A DNA stretch of 50,309 bases from Shigella phage Sfin-3. The notes under the pieces were generated by a model. The model saw only the letters and a program-made list of their open reading frames with translations. It had not been told where the DNA came from and searched no databases. Below, piece after piece: positions 311 to 49,954 of this stretch (position 1 is its first letter; each line of letters starts with the position of its first letter). Made by a program: the position numbers and the translations under genes. Where the stretch lies: the sequence record MN296515. One strand, given 5' to 3'.

Positions 311-350
311 CAAGAATTGCTAAACCTTCCGCAAGGCCATTTGATATAGT
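308..350 (+). promoter_or_regulatory. composite promoter module (palindrome TAGCA-agaat-TGCTA, 22-nt spacer, -10 TATAGT)
   Basis: Palindrome 308-322; -10 345-350 inside hairpin 333-356; ATG 391. Confidence 0.55.
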
Positions 351-1927: not shown

Positions 1928-2374
1928 ATGAAACACTTAATCTGCATTGAAGCGCCTAACTATGAATACACTCTGCACGGCATTGGAATGTTCAAAGGCC
2001 ACTACATGACAGCAAGCATTTATGATGCGCATCGAGGCGATGGCGATCTAATGATTACTTCAAAAGAAGTTAATCCGTACATCATGCAGAATCTCGGGAA
2101 CAATGAGTATATGGCTTACGGATGCAACGCGGTGTACAAGCATATCAAGATCCGCAAGCGCGTAGTTCGCGCATTCAAGAAGATTGCAATTAAATACTGG
2201 AAGATGAGCAAGAAGGACGCCGGAACATGGGCGCGTAACGTTGCTGATTCATACTTCTATCGTAACGGTGAGTCGTGCTACTTTTTGATCGATGATATTC
2301 ATGACAATTACGGCGGCTCATTCAGTCAGGAAGAGTTTGATAGCTGGGCTGAATACGAGATCAGTTGCTGGTAA
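1928..2374 (+). CDS. hypothetical protein (148 aa)
   Basis: ATG 1928 with GAGGA RBS downstream of module 1855-1897; track ORF 1886 starts inside promoter hairpin. Confidence 0.6.
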   Translation: MKHLICIEAPNYEYTLHGIGMFKGHYMTASIYDAHRGDGDLMITSKEVNPYIMQNLGNNEYMAYGCNAVYKHIKIRKRVVRAFKKIAIKYWKMSKKDAGTWARNVADSYFYRNGESCYFLIDDIHDNYGGSFSQEEFDSWAEYEISCW

Positions 2375-2417
2375 TAGCACTAATTGCTAAAACTTGCTCA
2401 AGGGCATTTGATAGAAT
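2375..2417 (+). promoter_or_regulatory. composite promoter module (TAGCA-ctaat-TGCTA, 22 nt, -10 TAGAAT)
   Basis: Palindrome 2375-2389; -10 2412-2417 in hairpin 2401-2422; ATG 2458. Confidence 0.55.
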
Positions 2418-2457
2418 GCCCTTCGTTGAGTTAAGCAACCAATCATAGGAATAAATC

Positions 2458-2991
2458 ATGGATAAAATTACCATTTGGGGTCAAACTATCAACCTGTTTC
2501 TCGGCACGCGATGCGTGGCAATCTTTGACTTTGACGGAACGCTTAGTGATGGATCAAAGCGCCTTCACCTGTTGCCGACAAAGGATTTGCACTTAACTGA
2601 AAGCTGGTCTGAGTTTAACCGAGCGGCAATATTTGATAACCCAATCCAGAGCACGATTGAGGTTATGAACTCTATGTTTGCTGCCGGGTATCACGTAATA
2701 GTTTTAACCGGGCGAAGTGATGAGGTTCGTTACGCATCTGAGTTATGGCTTAAGCATCACGGTGCGAGATATGATTACTTAGTCATGCGACCGCACACAG
2801 ACAACAGGAAAGACACGGTGATGAAAGAAGAAGCGGTTCGAGCGATCGGTATTGAAAACATCCTGGCAGCTTGGGATGACTCACCGCAAATTATTCCATT
2901 ATTCCGGTCGCTTGGAATAACAACATATGCGGTAGTTGACTATGGCGATAACATTCACGATCATTTAAAATCGCACGGGGTAGAGAAATGA
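2458..2991 (+). CDS. HAD-family phosphatase, T4 Pnk 3'-phosphatase-domain-like
   Basis: 177 aa; IFDFDGTLSD (DxDGT motif), VIVLTGRSD, RKDTVMKEE align by eye to the C-terminal phosphatase domain of T4 polynucleotide kinase. Confidence 0.7.
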   Translation: MDKITIWGQTINLFLGTRCVAIFDFDGTLSDGSKRLHLLPTKDLHLTESWSEFNRAAIFDNPIQSTIEVMNSMFAAGYHVIVLTGRSDEVRYASELWLKHHGARYDYLVMRPHTDNRKDTVMKEEAVRAIGIENILAAWDDSPQIIPLFRSLGITTYAVVDYGDNIHDHLKSHGVEK

Positions 2992-3098
2992 ACCTATACG
3001 AATTTATTGCAGCACATCCGGTATTGACGGTTATCATCCTGCTAATCATCAATCACACCATCATCAATATGGCAAAATTATTTTTAGGGAGATACTAA
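2988..3098 (+). CDS. hypothetical small membrane peptide (36 aa)
   Basis: ATG overlaps upstream TGA (ATGA); hydrophobic core VLTVIILLIINHTII; not in ORF track. Confidence 0.3.
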   Translation: MNLYEFIAAHPVLTVIILLIINHTIINMAKLFLGRY

Positions 3099-3099
3099 T

Positions 3100-3672
3100 A
3101 TGAAAACAGCTATCATTTTAAACGGCGCTCCTGGAGCAGGCAAGGACACTATCGGATGCATCCTGGCTGACACTTACGATCATGTAGCTTTGCGCAGCTT
3201 CAAAGCACCAATGTTTGAGATTGCTCGGGCAATACTGGGTGAGGCTAACTACGAGTATTTCATGTTCTTGTATGAGGATCGTCGTTACAAAGAAGAGCCA
3301 GCGTCAATCCTGAACGGTAAAAGCCCTCGCCAGTTTATGATCTGGATTAGCGAGGAAGTCATCAAGCCACAGTTCGGAAATCGATTCTTCGGTATGCGAG
3401 CGGAAAGCAAGGTCAAAGAGTCATATTCTCTGTCAGTATTTACTGATGGTGGATTCAAAGATGAGGTATTGCAGATGATTGAAGGTGATATCCAGGTCAA
3501 GCTATGCCGAATCCACCGCAAAGGCTGCAACTTTGACAACGACAGTCGTGATTATATTTACCTGGAAGATATGATCGGGGTTAATGGTTATCAGGAGTGT
3601 GATTTTTTCTCTGTCGAAGGTCATCCAGAAATTACCGCTCAGCACATAGCCGCTACGTTCATCAACAAATAG
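3100..3672 (+). CDS. P-loop nucleotide kinase, dNMP kinase (T4 gp1)-like
   Basis: 190 aa; Walker A GAPGAGKDT and ILNGKSPRQ resemble T4 deoxynucleoside monophosphate kinase; TAG stop is first triplet of palindrome 3670-3684. Confidence 0.65.
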   Translation: MKTAIILNGAPGAGKDTIGCILADTYDHVALRSFKAPMFEIARAILGEANYEYFMFLYEDRRYKEEPASILNGKSPRQFMIWISEEVIKPQFGNRFFGMRAESKVKESYSLSVFTDGGFKDEVLQMIEGDIQVKLCRIHRKGCNFDNDSRDYIYLEDMIGVNGYQECDFFSVEGHPEITAQHIAATFINK

Positions 3673-3712
3673 CACGAATTGCTAAAACGTCGGTGGGGTG
3701 ATTTGATATAGT
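3670..3712 (+). promoter_or_regulatory. composite promoter module (TAGCA-cgaat-TGCTA, 22 nt, -10 TATAGT)
   Basis: Palindrome 3670-3684; -10 3707-3712; ATG 3745. Confidence 0.55.
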
Positions 3713-31493: not shown

Positions 31494-31508
31494 TAGCACG
31501 AATTGCTA
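31494..31508. promoter_or_regulatory. palindrome copy in operator position at tail-fibre promoter
   Basis: TAGCA-cgaat-TGCTA lies between the predicted TSS of the - strand sigma70-like promoter (31516-31544) and the tail-fibre RBS. Confidence 0.45.
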
Positions 31509-31515
31509 AACACAG

Positions 31516-36328: not shown

Positions 36329-36576
36329 TGAACGATAAAATGATTCCGGTTAAGTTAACTGATCAAGGTTTATGGCTGCTTTATCGAGCTACCTGCTGCG
36401 AAATTATGGAGCGAAACGGATTGACTCAGGATGTTATTGGTTGCGATCTGTGGGAGTTCACTAGTTCTCTTGATATGTCTTTCGATGAGATAAAAAATGA
36501 ACACATAGAGAATTGGCCTTCAATCATACAGAAAGACGTGGAAGAACTTAAAGCTTATACAATCGTAAAGCACTAA
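36325..36576 (+). CDS. hypothetical protein (83 aa)
   Basis: ATG 36325 overlaps dam stop (ATGA), RBS GTGAGGAAAG; TAA stop inside palindrome 36568-36582. Confidence 0.55.
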   Translation: MMNDKMIPVKLTDQGLWLLYRATCCEIMERNGLTQDVIGCDLWEFTSSLDMSFDEIKNEHIENWPSIIQKDVEELKAYTIVKH

Positions 36577-36610
36577 TTGCTAAAACTACCCGGCGAAAGT
36601 CGGGTATAGT
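36568..36610 (+). promoter_or_regulatory. composite promoter module (AAGCA-ctaat-TGCTA, 22 nt, -10 TATAGT)
   Basis: Palindrome 36568-36582; hairpin 36588-36605; -10 36605-36610; ATG 36643. Confidence 0.55.
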
Positions 36611-37412: not shown

Positions 37413-38564
37413 ATGTCACAAGCTAAAATCACTACCGAGCAACTTATCGAAGAGCGCATGAGCGGCCTTACACTTCGCGAGATTGCGGAAAAGTACGGTA
37501 TGCACATCCGCACTGTTGAAGCTCGTCACGCAAAACTTGCAAAGGAAGGTCACTTCCACGGTAACGAGCATGTTGCTAAGAACGTACCGGAAGGATTCAT
37601 GGTAAAAGGCACATCAACGATGATTCGCGGCGATGGGACCGAGGTAGTGCGATGGGTTAAGACCGATCAGGACCGTGAGAAGATTGCGGCAATGATGGAA
37701 GCAGCGCGTATTGCATTCTGTGAAGACTTGCCGCGAGCAAAACCAACTGAGCTACTCACATCGCAAGGGCTTACAACCGCTATTGGCAAGCTGGCACTCT
37801 ACCCGGTGTTCGATCTTCACATTGGCGCGCTTGCTCACAAGCATGAATGCGGAGAGAACTACTCTACAGACGTAGCGGAAAAAGTGCTGAATGACTTCTT
37901 TAACTACGCGATCGATATTGCCCCGAACGCAGAGAAGGCTGTTCTGTTAATCGGCGGCGACTTCCTTCACTCAGACGGTCTTGATGCTGTTACCCCGGCA
38001 AGCGGTCACGTTCTGGATCAGGATTCACGATATGCGAAATTGGTGCATGTGGCTATTCGATCGGTGCGACGAGCTATCGACAAAATGCTGACTAAACACA
38101 AAGAGGTCGAAGTTCAGGTTATCGAAGGGAACCACGACCAGGCCGGAATGATTTGGCTACGCGCTGCAATGGCTGCATACTATGAGGACGAGCCGCGAGT
38201 ATTCGTTGACGTTAGTCCTATGATTCTGCATAAGACCCGCTGGGGAAATACCTTGTTGGGATACACTCACGGTCACACGATGAAAAAGGCAGACACGCGA
38301 CTTGCAGCGATGGCGGCAGACTTCCGTGCAGACTTCGGTGAAAGCAAATACGTGTATACTCACAGTGGACACTGGCACCATCAAACAATCACAGAACACT
38401 CGTTAGGTATTGATGAGGTTCACGGGCAGTTAGGCGCGAAAGATGCATACGCCGCGCGAGGCGGGTGGCGCTCATATCGCCAGGCGGCGGTAATCGTTTA
38501 CGATAAACAGTTTGGTGAAATCGGTCGATTCATCTATCGTCCAGAAATGACAGGATCGCACTAA
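37413..38564 (+). CDS. HTH domain fused to calcineurin-like metallophosphoesterase
   Basis: 383 aa; N-terminal LTLREIAEKYGMHIRTVE (sigma-region-4/LuxR-like HTH); then DLH, GDFLHSDG, GNHD, GHTM, GHWHH phosphoesterase motifs. Confidence 0.65.
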   Translation: MSQAKITTEQLIEERMSGLTLREIAEKYGMHIRTVEARHAKLAKEGHFHGNEHVAKNVPEGFMVKGTSTMIRGDGTEVVRWVKTDQDREKIAAMMEAARIAFCEDLPRAKPTELLTSQGLTTAIGKLALYPVFDLHIGALAHKHECGENYSTDVAEKVLNDFFNYAIDIAPNAEKAVLLIGGDFLHSDGLDAVTPASGHVLDQDSRYAKLVHVAIRSVRRAIDKMLTKHKEVEVQVIEGNHDQAGMIWLRAAMAAYYEDEPRVFVDVSPMILHKTRWGNTLLGYTHGHTMKKADTRLAAMAADFRADFGESKYVYTHSGHWHHQTITEHSLGIDEVHGQLGAKDAYAARGGWRSYRQAAVIVYDKQFGEIGRFIYRPEMTGSH

Positions 38565-38598
38565 TTGCTAAAAATACCCGAATGGACTCGGGTATAGT
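38556..38598 (+). promoter_or_regulatory. composite promoter module (TCGCA-ctaat-TGCTA, 22 nt, -10 TATAGT)
   Basis: Palindrome 38556-38570; hairpin 38575-38594; -10 38593-38598; ATG 38628. Confidence 0.55.
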
Positions 38599-48115: not shown

Positions 48116-48155
48116 CACGAATTGTTAAAACAGGATCGGGGTATCTTGCTATAGT
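48113..48155 (+). promoter_or_regulatory. composite promoter module (TAGCA-cgaat-TGTTA, 22 nt, -10 TATAGT)
   Basis: Palindrome 48113-48127; -10 48150-48155 inside hairpin 48138-48161; ATG 48194. Confidence 0.55.
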
Positions 48156-49913: not shown

Positions 49914-49954
49914 GCACGAATTGTTAAAAGTGGATTCGTCCTGACTGGTACAAT
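49912..49954 (+). promoter_or_regulatory. composite promoter module (AAGCA-cgaat-TGTTA, 22 nt, -10 TACAAT)
   Basis: Palindrome 49912-49926; -10 49949-49954; ATG 49985. Confidence 0.5.

What the first reader, a model, noticed from the sequence alone, without database searches (positions are those of the whole stretch)
2458..3672. Split polynucleotide-kinase-like pair: T4 Pnk-type phosphatase domain and a dNMP-kinase-like P-loop kinase as adjacent genes
Gene 2458-2991 matches the C-terminal 3'-phosphatase domain of T4 Pnk motif by motif (IFDFDGTLS, VIVLTGRSD, RKDTVMKEE). Gene 3100-3672 is a P-loop kinase closer in motifs to T4 gp1 dNMP kinase (GAPGAGKDT, ILNGKSPRQ) than to the Pnk kinase domain. 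They are separated by a 36-aa membrane peptide ORF and the second has its own RBS. The pair could rebuild an end-healing activity (defence against tRNA or DNA-nicking attack) from separate parts, or be a nucleotide-pool salvage pair (5'-nucleotidase plus dNMP kinase).
Basis: partly seen in the sequence, partly recalled or inferred. Interest (0 to 1): 0.45.

Follow-up and report, generated by a model that had tools for sequence, protein, structure and literature searches.

The report
Phage deoxynucleotide phosphatase-kinase gene pair
Two neighbouring genes of a T1-like phage encode a Pnk-type phosphatase and a deoxynucleotide (dNMP) kinase that handle DNA building blocks rather than repairing broken nucleic acid ends, and the pair is already annotated, with close relatives of the kinase already tested.

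Summary
ORFs 2458-2991, 2988-3098 and 3100-3672 exist with the quoted motifs. The window is a complete Tunavirus genome, about 98% identical to Shigella phage Sfin-1/4, where the pair is already annotated.

No ligase is encoded, so "split Pnkp for end-healing" is not supported. The nucleotide-pool reading is supported.

The pair recurs in three phage groups. It is often preceded by an exonuclease gene and is rarely fused into one protein.

The phosphatase substrate remains open. It is closer to the T4 Pnk 3'-phosphatase, but shares a PHROG family with the T5 Dmp 5'-dNMPase. Rao1 carries the same phosphatase yet stays Kongming-sensitive.

This is a known kind of module and of low interest.

The parts
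2374..2423 (+). Conserved promoter-like intergenic element upstream of the phosphatase. It comprises atAGCACtAATTGCTAAAAC (12-mer at 2382-2393) and a -10-like TAGAAT at 2412-2417. The -10-like hexamer's last two bases overlap the right arm of the inverted repeat 2400-2407 / 2416-2423.
   Evidence: The exact 12-mer occurs 4 times, with near copies 5 more times, always just upstream of + strand ORFs and with a fixed 22-nt distance to a TATAGT-like hexamer. Its function was not tested.
2458..2991 (+). Stand-alone HAD phosphomonoesterase of the T4 Pnk phosphatase clade (177 aa). Catalytic set: D24, D26, R35, T84, R86, D119, K123, D140, D141.
2988..3098 (+). 36-codon hydrophobic peptide gene, specific to part of Tunavirus and not part of the conserved module.
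   Evidence: Found in 10 related loci, with 17 synonymous versus 6 non-synonymous codon changes. No hit in T1, where a 164-aa HNH endonuclease ORF fills the gap. Other genera have 0-2.2 kb of other small genes, or none.
3086..3091 (+). Shine-Dalgarno AGGGAG of the kinase gene, 8 nt before the ATG.
   Evidence: Read directly from the sequence.
3100..3672 (+). Compact DNK-family deoxynucleoside monophosphate kinase (190 aa). Conserved residues: P-loop G14 K15 D16, then R77, D116, E122, R140.
3670..3712 (+). Next copy of the promoter-like element (12-mer 3677-3688, TATAGT 3707-3712). It begins at the kinase stop codon and marks the end of the unit.
37413..38564 (+). phrog_704 'DNA repair exonuclease' (383 aa). 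It is unlinked to the pair in this genome, but lies immediately upstream of the phosphatase-kinase pair in many other phages.
   Evidence: tblastn and PHROG hits. It is adjacent to the pair in 31 of 80 related contigs, in Rao1 gp56-57-58 and in Kagunavirus.

Best explanation
The phosphatase gene, the small peptide gene and the kinase gene form one transcription unit of a T1-like phage. The unit processes deoxynucleotides. It is not a Pnkp split in two.

The kinase is a compact member of the phage DNK family (T4 gp1 / T5 Dnk). It uses ATP to convert dNMPs, largely from host DNA breakdown, into dNDPs. Host Ndk then makes dNTPs for phage replication. This activity is shown for a 42%-identical homologue from a T1-like phage and is inferred here.

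The phosphatase is a stand-alone HAD phosphomonoesterase with every catalytic residue of the T4 Pnk phosphatase. I infer that it removes a phosphate from DNA-breakdown products. The most likely targets are 3'-phosphates on 3'-dNMPs, pdNp or 3'-P oligonucleotides. Removing them would let exonuclease and the kinase carry the material on to dNDPs, placing the phosphatase upstream of the kinase in salvage. The substrate assignment is the weakest step.

For: The residues G14-K15-D16, R77, D116 and E122 are invariant across T1-, T5-, Vibrio- and T4-type DNKs. Both the window kinase and T5 Dnk hit phrog_139.

The window kinase is 41.5% identical to Rao1 R1DNK, which phosphorylates dAMP, dGMP, dCMP and dTMP. 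R1DNK's K15A mutant is inactive in vivo, and its deletion lowers dATP.

In other phages the kinase sits among nucleotide and replication genes. In Vequintavirus these are ThyX, RNR and an NT5C-type nucleotidase. In Chaseviridae they are dUTPase and DNA ligase.

The phosphatase-then-kinase order on one strand is found in 72 of 80 related viral contigs. It is also found in Autographiviridae (Aeromonas phage ST21) and in Kagunavirus.

An exonuclease gene lies directly upstream in 31 of 80 contigs and in Rao1.

Natural phosphatase(N)-kinase(C) fusions exist in two lineages only 37% identical to each other.

Copies of the promoter-like element bracket the unit. No ligase is present.
Against: No enzyme assay exists for any T1-type phosphatase.

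The only biochemically characterised member I identified in its PHROG family (phrog_415) is T5 Dmp, a 5'-dNMPase. That would act against the kinase, not upstream of it.

No T1 nuclease that leaves 3'-phosphates is known.

Deleting dnk in Rao1 had no measurable fitness cost in the laboratory, so salvage through this kinase is not critical there.

In this genome the exonuclease gene is not linked to the pair.
Confidence: 0.55

Rival explanations
1. Dmp/Dnk-type pair. The phosphatase is a 5'-dNMP phosphatase like T5 Dmp. It trims or rebalances the dNMP pool, and in doing so offsets the liability of carrying a DNK, which nucleotide-sensing defences such as Kongming exploit to make dITP.
For: T5 Dmp has the same DxDGT nucleophile (D22). 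It hits phrog_415 at 1e-56 over its full length, the same family as the window phosphatase. hhalign of the T1-type profile against a Dmp alignment gives probability 89%, E 2e-6, and the two share the long loop after motif I that T4 Pnk lacks. Dmp is a proven anti-Kongming factor, and Dmp and DNK are reported to co-occur. In Vequintavirus a non-homologous NT5C-type deoxynucleotidase sits next to the DNK. That suggests convergent pairing of a mononucleotide phosphatase with a DNK.
Against: A T1-type HMM scores T4 Pnk at 37 bits but Dmp proteins at 13 bits or less. Pfam HAD_PNKP does not detect T5 Dmp. No named Dmp appears in the top 50 BFVD fold matches. Rao1 carries the same phosphatase (gp57, 58% identical) directly before its DNK. 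Yet it is sensitive to Kongming and its dAMP rises 2-3 fold during infection. A 5'-dNMPase fused to a dNMP kinase would compete for its own substrate.
Confidence: 0.27
2. Split polynucleotide kinase-phosphatase. The phosphatase heals 3'-P or 2',3'-cyclic-P ends and the adjacent kinase phosphorylates 5'-OH ends of nicked DNA or cleaved tRNA. This would counter nuclease-based defence.
For: The phosphatase is the closest structural and sequence relative of the T4 Pnk and Pnkp1 healing phosphatases. The two activities are sometimes fused in one polypeptide. A metallophosphoesterase or exonuclease gene is often adjacent.
Against: The kinase is of the DNK type, and a homologue acts on mononucleotides. 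The similarity to T4 Pnk kinase is limited to the 26-residue P-loop stretch. No ligase is present to seal healed ends. I also recall that host RtcB needs the 3'-P that this enzyme would remove; this is from general knowledge, not tested here. The domain order is opposite to that of Pnkp.
Confidence: 0.06
3. The two genes are neighbours by descent only and work in unrelated processes.
For: Each occurs without the other. The phosphatase occurs alone in P1 (Pap) and in Pbunavirus. The kinase occurs without a PNKP-type phosphatase within the 4 kb fetched on either side in Chaseviridae and Saclayvirus. The gap between the two genes varies from 0 to 2.2 kb and takes up unrelated insertions.
Against: Adjacency in the same order recurs in three unrelated phage groups, and the genes are fused in two diverged lineages.
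Confidence: 0.08

Closest known systems
R1DNK (gp58) of Escherichia phage Rao1, and the DNKs of phages KarlJaspers (Bas06) and vB_KpnS-VAC2 (Zeng et al., bioRxiv 10.1101/2024.12.20.629578)
   Same: Same compact kinase subfamily of about 185-200 aa. They are 41.5-46% identical to the window kinase over the full length and share the catalytic K15. Rao1 has the same genomic module: exonuclease gp56, phosphatase gp57, DNK gp58. R1DNK phosphorylates all four dNMPs and triggers Kongming.
   Different: They come from other genera. In the window the exonuclease is unlinked, and a 36-codon peptide gene sits between the two genes.
T4 gp1 and T5 Dnk deoxynucleoside monophosphate kinases (Pfam DNMK PF21448, PDB 1DEK)
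   Different: The window protein is about 50-60 residues shorter, because it lacks the long insert in the NMP-binding region. It gives no Pfam DNMK hit even at E <= 1. An HMM built from the T1-type family scores T5 Dnk at only 18.6 bits.
T4 polynucleotide kinase-phosphatase (PseT), C-terminal 3'-phosphatase domain; Capnocytophaga Pnkp1
   Different: The window protein is stand-alone, with no fused AAA_33-type 5'-kinase. It has about 15 extra, highly conserved residues after motif I (RLHLLPxxDLHLTESWSEFN). It has a conserved C-terminal tail that is predicted to be disordered. The genome has no partner ligase.
T5 Dmp deoxynucleoside 5'-monophosphatase
   Same: Same PHROG family, phrog_415. It has the DxDGT nucleophile, HR after motif I, a T-x-R motif II, KDxVxK and a DD motif IV. 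In T5, dmp lies about 0.85 kb from the gene for the predicted metallophosphatase A1, which drives host DNA degradation, and the phage also encodes a Dnk.
   Different: The relationship is only remote: hhalign probability 89% over the N-terminal half and an HMM score of 13 bits or less. Dmp is longer, with extra inserts. In T5, dmp and dnk are about 21 kb apart in different expression classes.

Membership tests
DNK / dNMP kinase family (T4 gp1, T5 Dnk; phrog_139; Pfam DNMK) | P-loop ending in GKD/T | tested here: met
   G9-APGA-G14-K15-D16-T17. G14, K15 and D16 are invariant in 28 homologues and across T4, T5 and Vibrio DNKs.
DNK / dNMP kinase family (T4 gp1, T5 Dnk; phrog_139; Pfam DNMK) | Fold closest to the gp1 structure | tested here: met
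DNK / dNMP kinase family (T4 gp1, T5 Dnk; phrog_139; Pfam DNMK) | Conserved NMP-site and lid residues (Arg of the SPR/SVR motif, Asp of xDGGF/xDVRF, following Glu, RxG) | tested here: met
   R77, D116 and E122 are invariant; R140 and G142 are conserved in at least 90% of 12 DNKs from 5 or more phage groups. Their roles are assigned by analogy only.
DNK / dNMP kinase family (T4 gp1, T5 Dnk; phrog_139; Pfam DNMK) | Match to the curated family profile | tested here: inconclusive
   phrog_139 matches at 6e-46, but Pfam DNMK PF21448 gives no hit at E <= 1, whereas T4 gp1 scores 3e-107 and T5 Dnk 4e-11. hhalign to T5 Dnk gives 95.5%, over the N-terminal 46 columns only.
DNK / dNMP kinase family (T4 gp1, T5 Dnk; phrog_139; Pfam DNMK) | ATP-dependent phosphorylation of dNMPs | not testable with these tools
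   Shown for R1DNK, which is 41.5% identical. Inferred for the window protein.
T4-type polynucleotide kinase-phosphatase (Pnkp) end-healing system | HAD 3'-phosphatase domain with DxDGT and the essential Arg/Asp set | tested here: met
   D24, D26, R35, R86, D119, D140 and D141 align with T4 D165, D167, R176, R213, D254, D277 and D278. Pfam HAD_PNKP scores above its cut-off.
T4-type polynucleotide kinase-phosphatase (Pnkp) end-healing system | 5'-OH polynucleotide kinase domain of the Pnk type in the same protein | tested here: not met
T4-type polynucleotide kinase-phosphatase (Pnkp) end-healing system | Partner RNA or DNA ligase encoded by the same genome | tested here: not met
   None is annotated in the 78 genes of phage phiL, about 90% identical over the region compared. 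tblastn of T4 Rnl1 and of two other phage ligases against the window gives E > 0.1. The sensitivity of this test is limited.
T4-type polynucleotide kinase-phosphatase (Pnkp) end-healing system | 3'-phosphatase / 2',3'-cyclic phosphodiesterase activity on polynucleotide ends | not testable with these tools
T5 Dmp-type deoxynucleoside 5'-monophosphatase | Membership of the same sequence family as Dmp | tested here: inconclusive
   Both hit phrog_415 strongly, and hhalign gives 89% over the N-terminal half. However, the T1-type HMM gives VPG01 Dmp only 13 bits and does not report T5 Dmp at all. BLASTP gives E 0.012 at best, in a database of 11 proteins.
T5 Dmp-type deoxynucleoside 5'-monophosphatase | Depletes dAMP in vivo / protects against Kongming | not testable with these tools
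   There is indirect evidence against. Rao1 encodes the orthologue gp57, yet it is Kongming-sensitive and its dAMP rises after infection.

The most novel reading that the evidence does not exclude
The Pnk-clade phosphatase and the DNK kinase are a dedicated two-step unit, in many phages a three-step unit with the phrog_704 exonuclease, and occasionally a single fused protein. The unit would convert 3'-phosphorylated host-DNA debris into dNDPs. That would give a Pnk-type 3'-phosphatase a role in nucleotide salvage rather than in end repair. Alternatively, the phosphatase is a built-in antidote that lets a phage carry a DNK without setting off nucleotide-sensing immunity other than the one Kongming allele tested so far.
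Probability: 0.3. Interest if true: 0.5.

Novelty: already known. Interest (0 to 1): 0.22.

Why it matters
The result is mainly a clean-up. Across more than a thousand T1-like and other phage genomes the upstream gene is labelled "polynucleotide kinase" although it has no kinase domain. The downstream gene is often labelled "hypothetical" although tested homologues are dNMP kinases and known triggers of the Kongming defence.

The useful open point is the phosphatase. It lies between two characterised enzymes with opposite specificities, the T4 Pnk 3'-phosphatase and the T5 Dmp 5'-dNMPase. It is genetically tied to the kinase and is sometimes fused to it. A simple substrate assay on Rao1 gp57 would settle whether T1-like phages recycle 3'-phosphorylated DNA debris or tune their dNMP pool or evade immunity.

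Tried and rejected
1. Direct sequence searches of the kinase against solved structures, with a single sequence and with a 28-sequence profile, found only generic P-loop matches and missed 1DEK. The fold search was needed.

2. I asked whether the Pbunavirus "3'-phosphatase, 5'-polynucleotide kinase" (338 aa) is a phosphatase-DNK fusion. It is not. Its C-terminal domain has no P-loop, gives a weak DUF6378 hit, and shows no similarity to the kinase profile.

3. I asked whether the T5 nuclease A1 and the T1-type exonuclease are the same family. They are not: phrog_1745 versus phrog_704, with no Pfam hits. The T5 parallel is therefore only an analogy.

4. I looked for T5 Dmp among the viral fold matches of the phosphatase model. 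It was not seen by name in the top 50.

5. NCBIfam has no model for either protein.

6. Literature searches for anti-defence roles of T1-like "PNK", for follow-ups on anti-Kongming factors and for T1 host-DNA degradation found nothing beyond the Kongming preprint and the KanT1 paper. The retron Eco2 paper mentions PNK only as a laboratory reagent.

7. The consensus sigma-70 and terminator scan around the locus was no better than shuffled sequence.

Full report
**What the window is.** The 2.5 kb around the finding is 98.3-98.4% identical to Shigella phages Sfin-1/2/4/5/6 and phi2457T. It is about 90% identical to many other Tunavirus genomes. The window is therefore a complete T1-like (Drexlerviridae) genome. 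In those records the upstream gene is called "3'-phosphatase, 5'-polynucleotide kinase" or "polynucleotide kinase". The downstream gene is called "hypothetical protein" or, in pharokka-style annotations, "deoxynucleoside monophosphate kinase". A 2026 paper on T1-like phage KanT1 already notes that these two genes often follow the "DNA repair exonuclease" gene in Drexlerviridae. It suggests they extend the replication module by enhancing nucleotide supply (PMC13164509).

**The observation.** The three + strand ORFs are exactly as described. The phosphatase stop overlaps the start of the 36-codon ORF (ATGA). That ORF ends one base before the kinase ATG, which has an AGGGAG Shine-Dalgarno 8 nt upstream. 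All quoted peptide motifs are present.

**The phosphatase.**
- It matches Pfam HAD_PNKP (7e-17, above the gathering score) and phrog_415 (1e-65).
- A profile of 24 homologues aligns with T4 Pnk residues 150-296 at 97% probability.
- Every residue I recall as essential for the T4 3'-phosphatase has a counterpart that is invariant or nearly invariant in the family. The window residues are D24, D26, R35, T84, R86, D119, K123, D140 and D141. They match T4 D165, D167, R176, S211, R213, D254, K258, D277 and D278.
- It differs from T4 Pnk in three ways. It is a single domain. It has about 15 extra, almost invariant residues after motif I (RLHLLPxxDLHLTESWSEFN). It has a conserved C-terminal tail that is predicted to be disordered.

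**The kinase.**
- It has no Pfam family, and Pfam DNMK is not hit. It does hit phrog_139 (6e-46).
- Sequence searches against PDB failed.
- hhalign links it to T5 Dnk at 95.5%.
- A joint alignment of T1-, T5-, Vibrio- and T4-type DNKs shows G14, K15, D16, R77, D116 and E122 invariant. The T1-type protein is a compact version lacking a 50-60 residue insert.
The true gp1 counterpart of SPRQFMIWISE is WSVRRLMQALGTD.

**Experimental anchor from the literature.** The Kongming preprint (Zeng et al., bioRxiv 10.1101/2024.12.20.629578) isolated escape mutants of Escherichia phage Rao1. They mapped to gp58, a DNK.
- R1DNK phosphorylates dAMP, dGMP and dCMP, and less well dTMP.
- K15A abolishes its in vivo effect.
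- Deletion of dnk lowers dATP moderately, with no obvious fitness cost.
- The sequences given in the supplement show that R1DNK is 41.5% identical to the window kinase over its full length. The DNKs of KarlJaspers (Bas06) and Klebsiella phage VAC2 are 46% identical. Both also trigger Kongming.
- Rao1 is itself a 44-kb T1-like phage. Its gp56, gp57 and gp58 are the phrog_704 exonuclease, a "polynucleotide kinase" 58% identical to the window phosphatase, and the DNK.

The kinase function is thus essentially established by homology.

**Context and linkage.**
- Among 80 viral contigs carrying the kinase, 72 have the phosphatase upstream on the same strand. The gap ranges from 0 to about 2.2 kb. 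At least one of the eight exceptions sits at a contig end.
- In T1 itself the gap holds an HNH homing endonuclease. In other genera it holds assorted small genes.
- The 36-codon ORF is confined to part of Tunavirus but evolves like a coding sequence.
- In 31 of the 80 contigs the phrog_704 exonuclease lies directly before the pair. In this window it is far away, at 37413-38564.
- The same phosphatase-kinase pair occurs with overlapping stop and start in Aeromonas phage ST21 (Autographiviridae). There it sits inside the DNA polymerase / exonuclease module and is preceded by a different metallophosphoesterase.
- In Kagunavirus the pair follows the exonuclease.
- Elsewhere the kinase occurs without this phosphatase but among nucleotide genes. 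In Vequintavirus it is followed by an NT5C-family deoxynucleotidase and lies near ThyX and RNR. In Chaseviridae it sits between DNA ligase and dUTPase.
- The phosphatase also occurs alone, as P1 Pap and the Pbunavirus protein.
- A search of 1.8 billion representative proteins found 5150 relatives of the kinase. Two of the longest of the 150 best-scoring hits listed are natural fusions, with HAD_PNKP at the N-terminus and DNK at the C-terminus (P0219, 403 aa; P0231, 461 aa). They are 37% identical to each other and share a linker motif. A third fusion is 74% identical to P0219. One lies on a 60-kb phage contig.
- Copies of a conserved promoter-like element bracket the unit at 2382 and 3677.

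**No sealing enzyme.** No ligase is annotated in a close relative. tblastn with three phage ligases finds nothing in the window.

**What the phosphatase acts on.** Two characterised relatives point in opposite directions.
- T5 Dmp is a 5'-dNMPase and a proven anti-Kongming factor. It is a HAD enzyme with the same DxDGT nucleophile. It hits phrog_415 at 1e-56 and aligns to the T1-type profile at 89% probability, including the long loop after motif I.
- The T1-type protein is nevertheless much nearer to T4 Pnk. An HMM of the T1-type family scores T4 Pnk at 37 bits, VPG01 Dmp at 13 bits, and does not report T5 Dmp. Pfam HAD_PNKP does not see T5 Dmp. Dmp is not named among the top 50 viral fold matches.
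- Rao1 carries the orthologous phosphatase, yet it is sensitive to Kongming and accumulates dAMP. This argues against an efficient dAMP 5'-phosphatase.
- The gene order exonuclease, phosphatase, kinase, together with the fusions, fits enzymes acting in sequence better than enzymes competing for one substrate.

I therefore favour a 3'-phosphomonoesterase acting on DNA-breakdown products upstream of the kinase. This is an inference, not a result. The Dmp-like alternative keeps about a quarter of the probability.

**Verdict.** Its end-healing interpretation is not supported, and its nucleotide-pool alternative is supported. The pair is a known, widely annotated module whose kinase has been characterised in a sister phage. 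What remains unknown is the substrate of the stand-alone Pnk-clade phosphatase.

Noticed in passing
window 315-326, 1862-1873, 2382-2393, 3677-3688, 31501-31512, 36575-36586, 38563-38574, 48120-48131, 49919-49930 (+ strand): A conserved intergenic element, (a)tAGCAC(g/t)AATTGCTAAAAC, is followed at a fixed 22 nt from TTGCTA by a TATAGT-like hexamer. At most copies examined that hexamer lies within or overlaps an inverted repeat (e.g. 2400-2407 / 2416-2423). Where checked (2372-2377, 3670-3672), the stop codon of the preceding gene lies inside the element. It looks like a phage promoter or regulatory site with non-canonical spacing plus a hairpin.
   Followed up: partly
L006 5464-5958 (phage T1) and L004 5503-5997: In T1 itself a 164-aa HNH (AP2-type) homing endonuclease ORF fills the gap between the phosphatase and kinase genes, and no homologue of the 36-codon ORF is detected there. 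In other genera up to 2.2 kb of small accessory genes are inserted at the same spot.
   Followed up: partly
window 2947-2988 (phosphatase residues 164-177): The C-terminal tail (DNIHDHLKSHGVEK) is nearly invariant across genera but is predicted to be disordered (pLDDT below 50). A related D-L-x-x-G-V stretch precedes the linker in the natural fusion proteins. It may be a docking motif.
   Followed up: no
P0219 (L097 6001-7212), P0231, P0351: These are natural single-chain fusions of a HAD_PNKP phosphatase (N-terminal) with a DNK-type kinase (C-terminal). They come from two lineages only 37% identical to each other, and one lies on a 60.8-kb phage contig.
   Followed up: partly
L095 124-858 (T5 dmp): T5 Dmp, the classical deoxynucleoside 5'-monophosphatase, is a HAD enzyme (WDLDGT, D22). 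It falls in phrog_415, whose label is 'polynucleotide kinase'. That label, and the GenBank names derived from it, are misleading for stand-alone phosphatases.
   Followed up: yes
L086 4992-6193 (Escherichia phage Mangalyan, Vequintavirus): The DNK homologue is immediately followed by an NT5C-family HAD deoxynucleotidase and lies close to ThyX and ribonucleotide reductase. This is an analogous kinase-phosphatase pairing with a non-homologous phosphatase.
   Followed up: partly
L091 3977-4993 (Pseudomonas phage chunk, Pbunavirus): The protein annotated '3'-phosphatase, 5'-polynucleotide kinase' has the HAD_PNKP domain, an acidic low-complexity linker and a C-terminal helical domain with a weak DUF6378 match and no P-loop. 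It sits between thymidylate synthase and the Pol III subunit genes.
   Followed up: partly
L085 3482-4456 (Aeromonas phage ST21) and L090 3486-4049 (phage XY1): Additional metallophosphoesterase genes sit directly before the phosphatase-kinase pair. In ST21 this is a phrog_221 protein. In XY1 it is a truncated second copy of the exonuclease C-terminal region.
   Followed up: no
L001 4065-4472 (phage phiL) versus window 2458-2991: In phiL and several relatives the phosphatase is annotated as a 135-aa protein, and there is a 78-nt longer gap before the small ORF, which then starts with GTG. This may be a start-site or frame difference in annotation.
   Followed up: no
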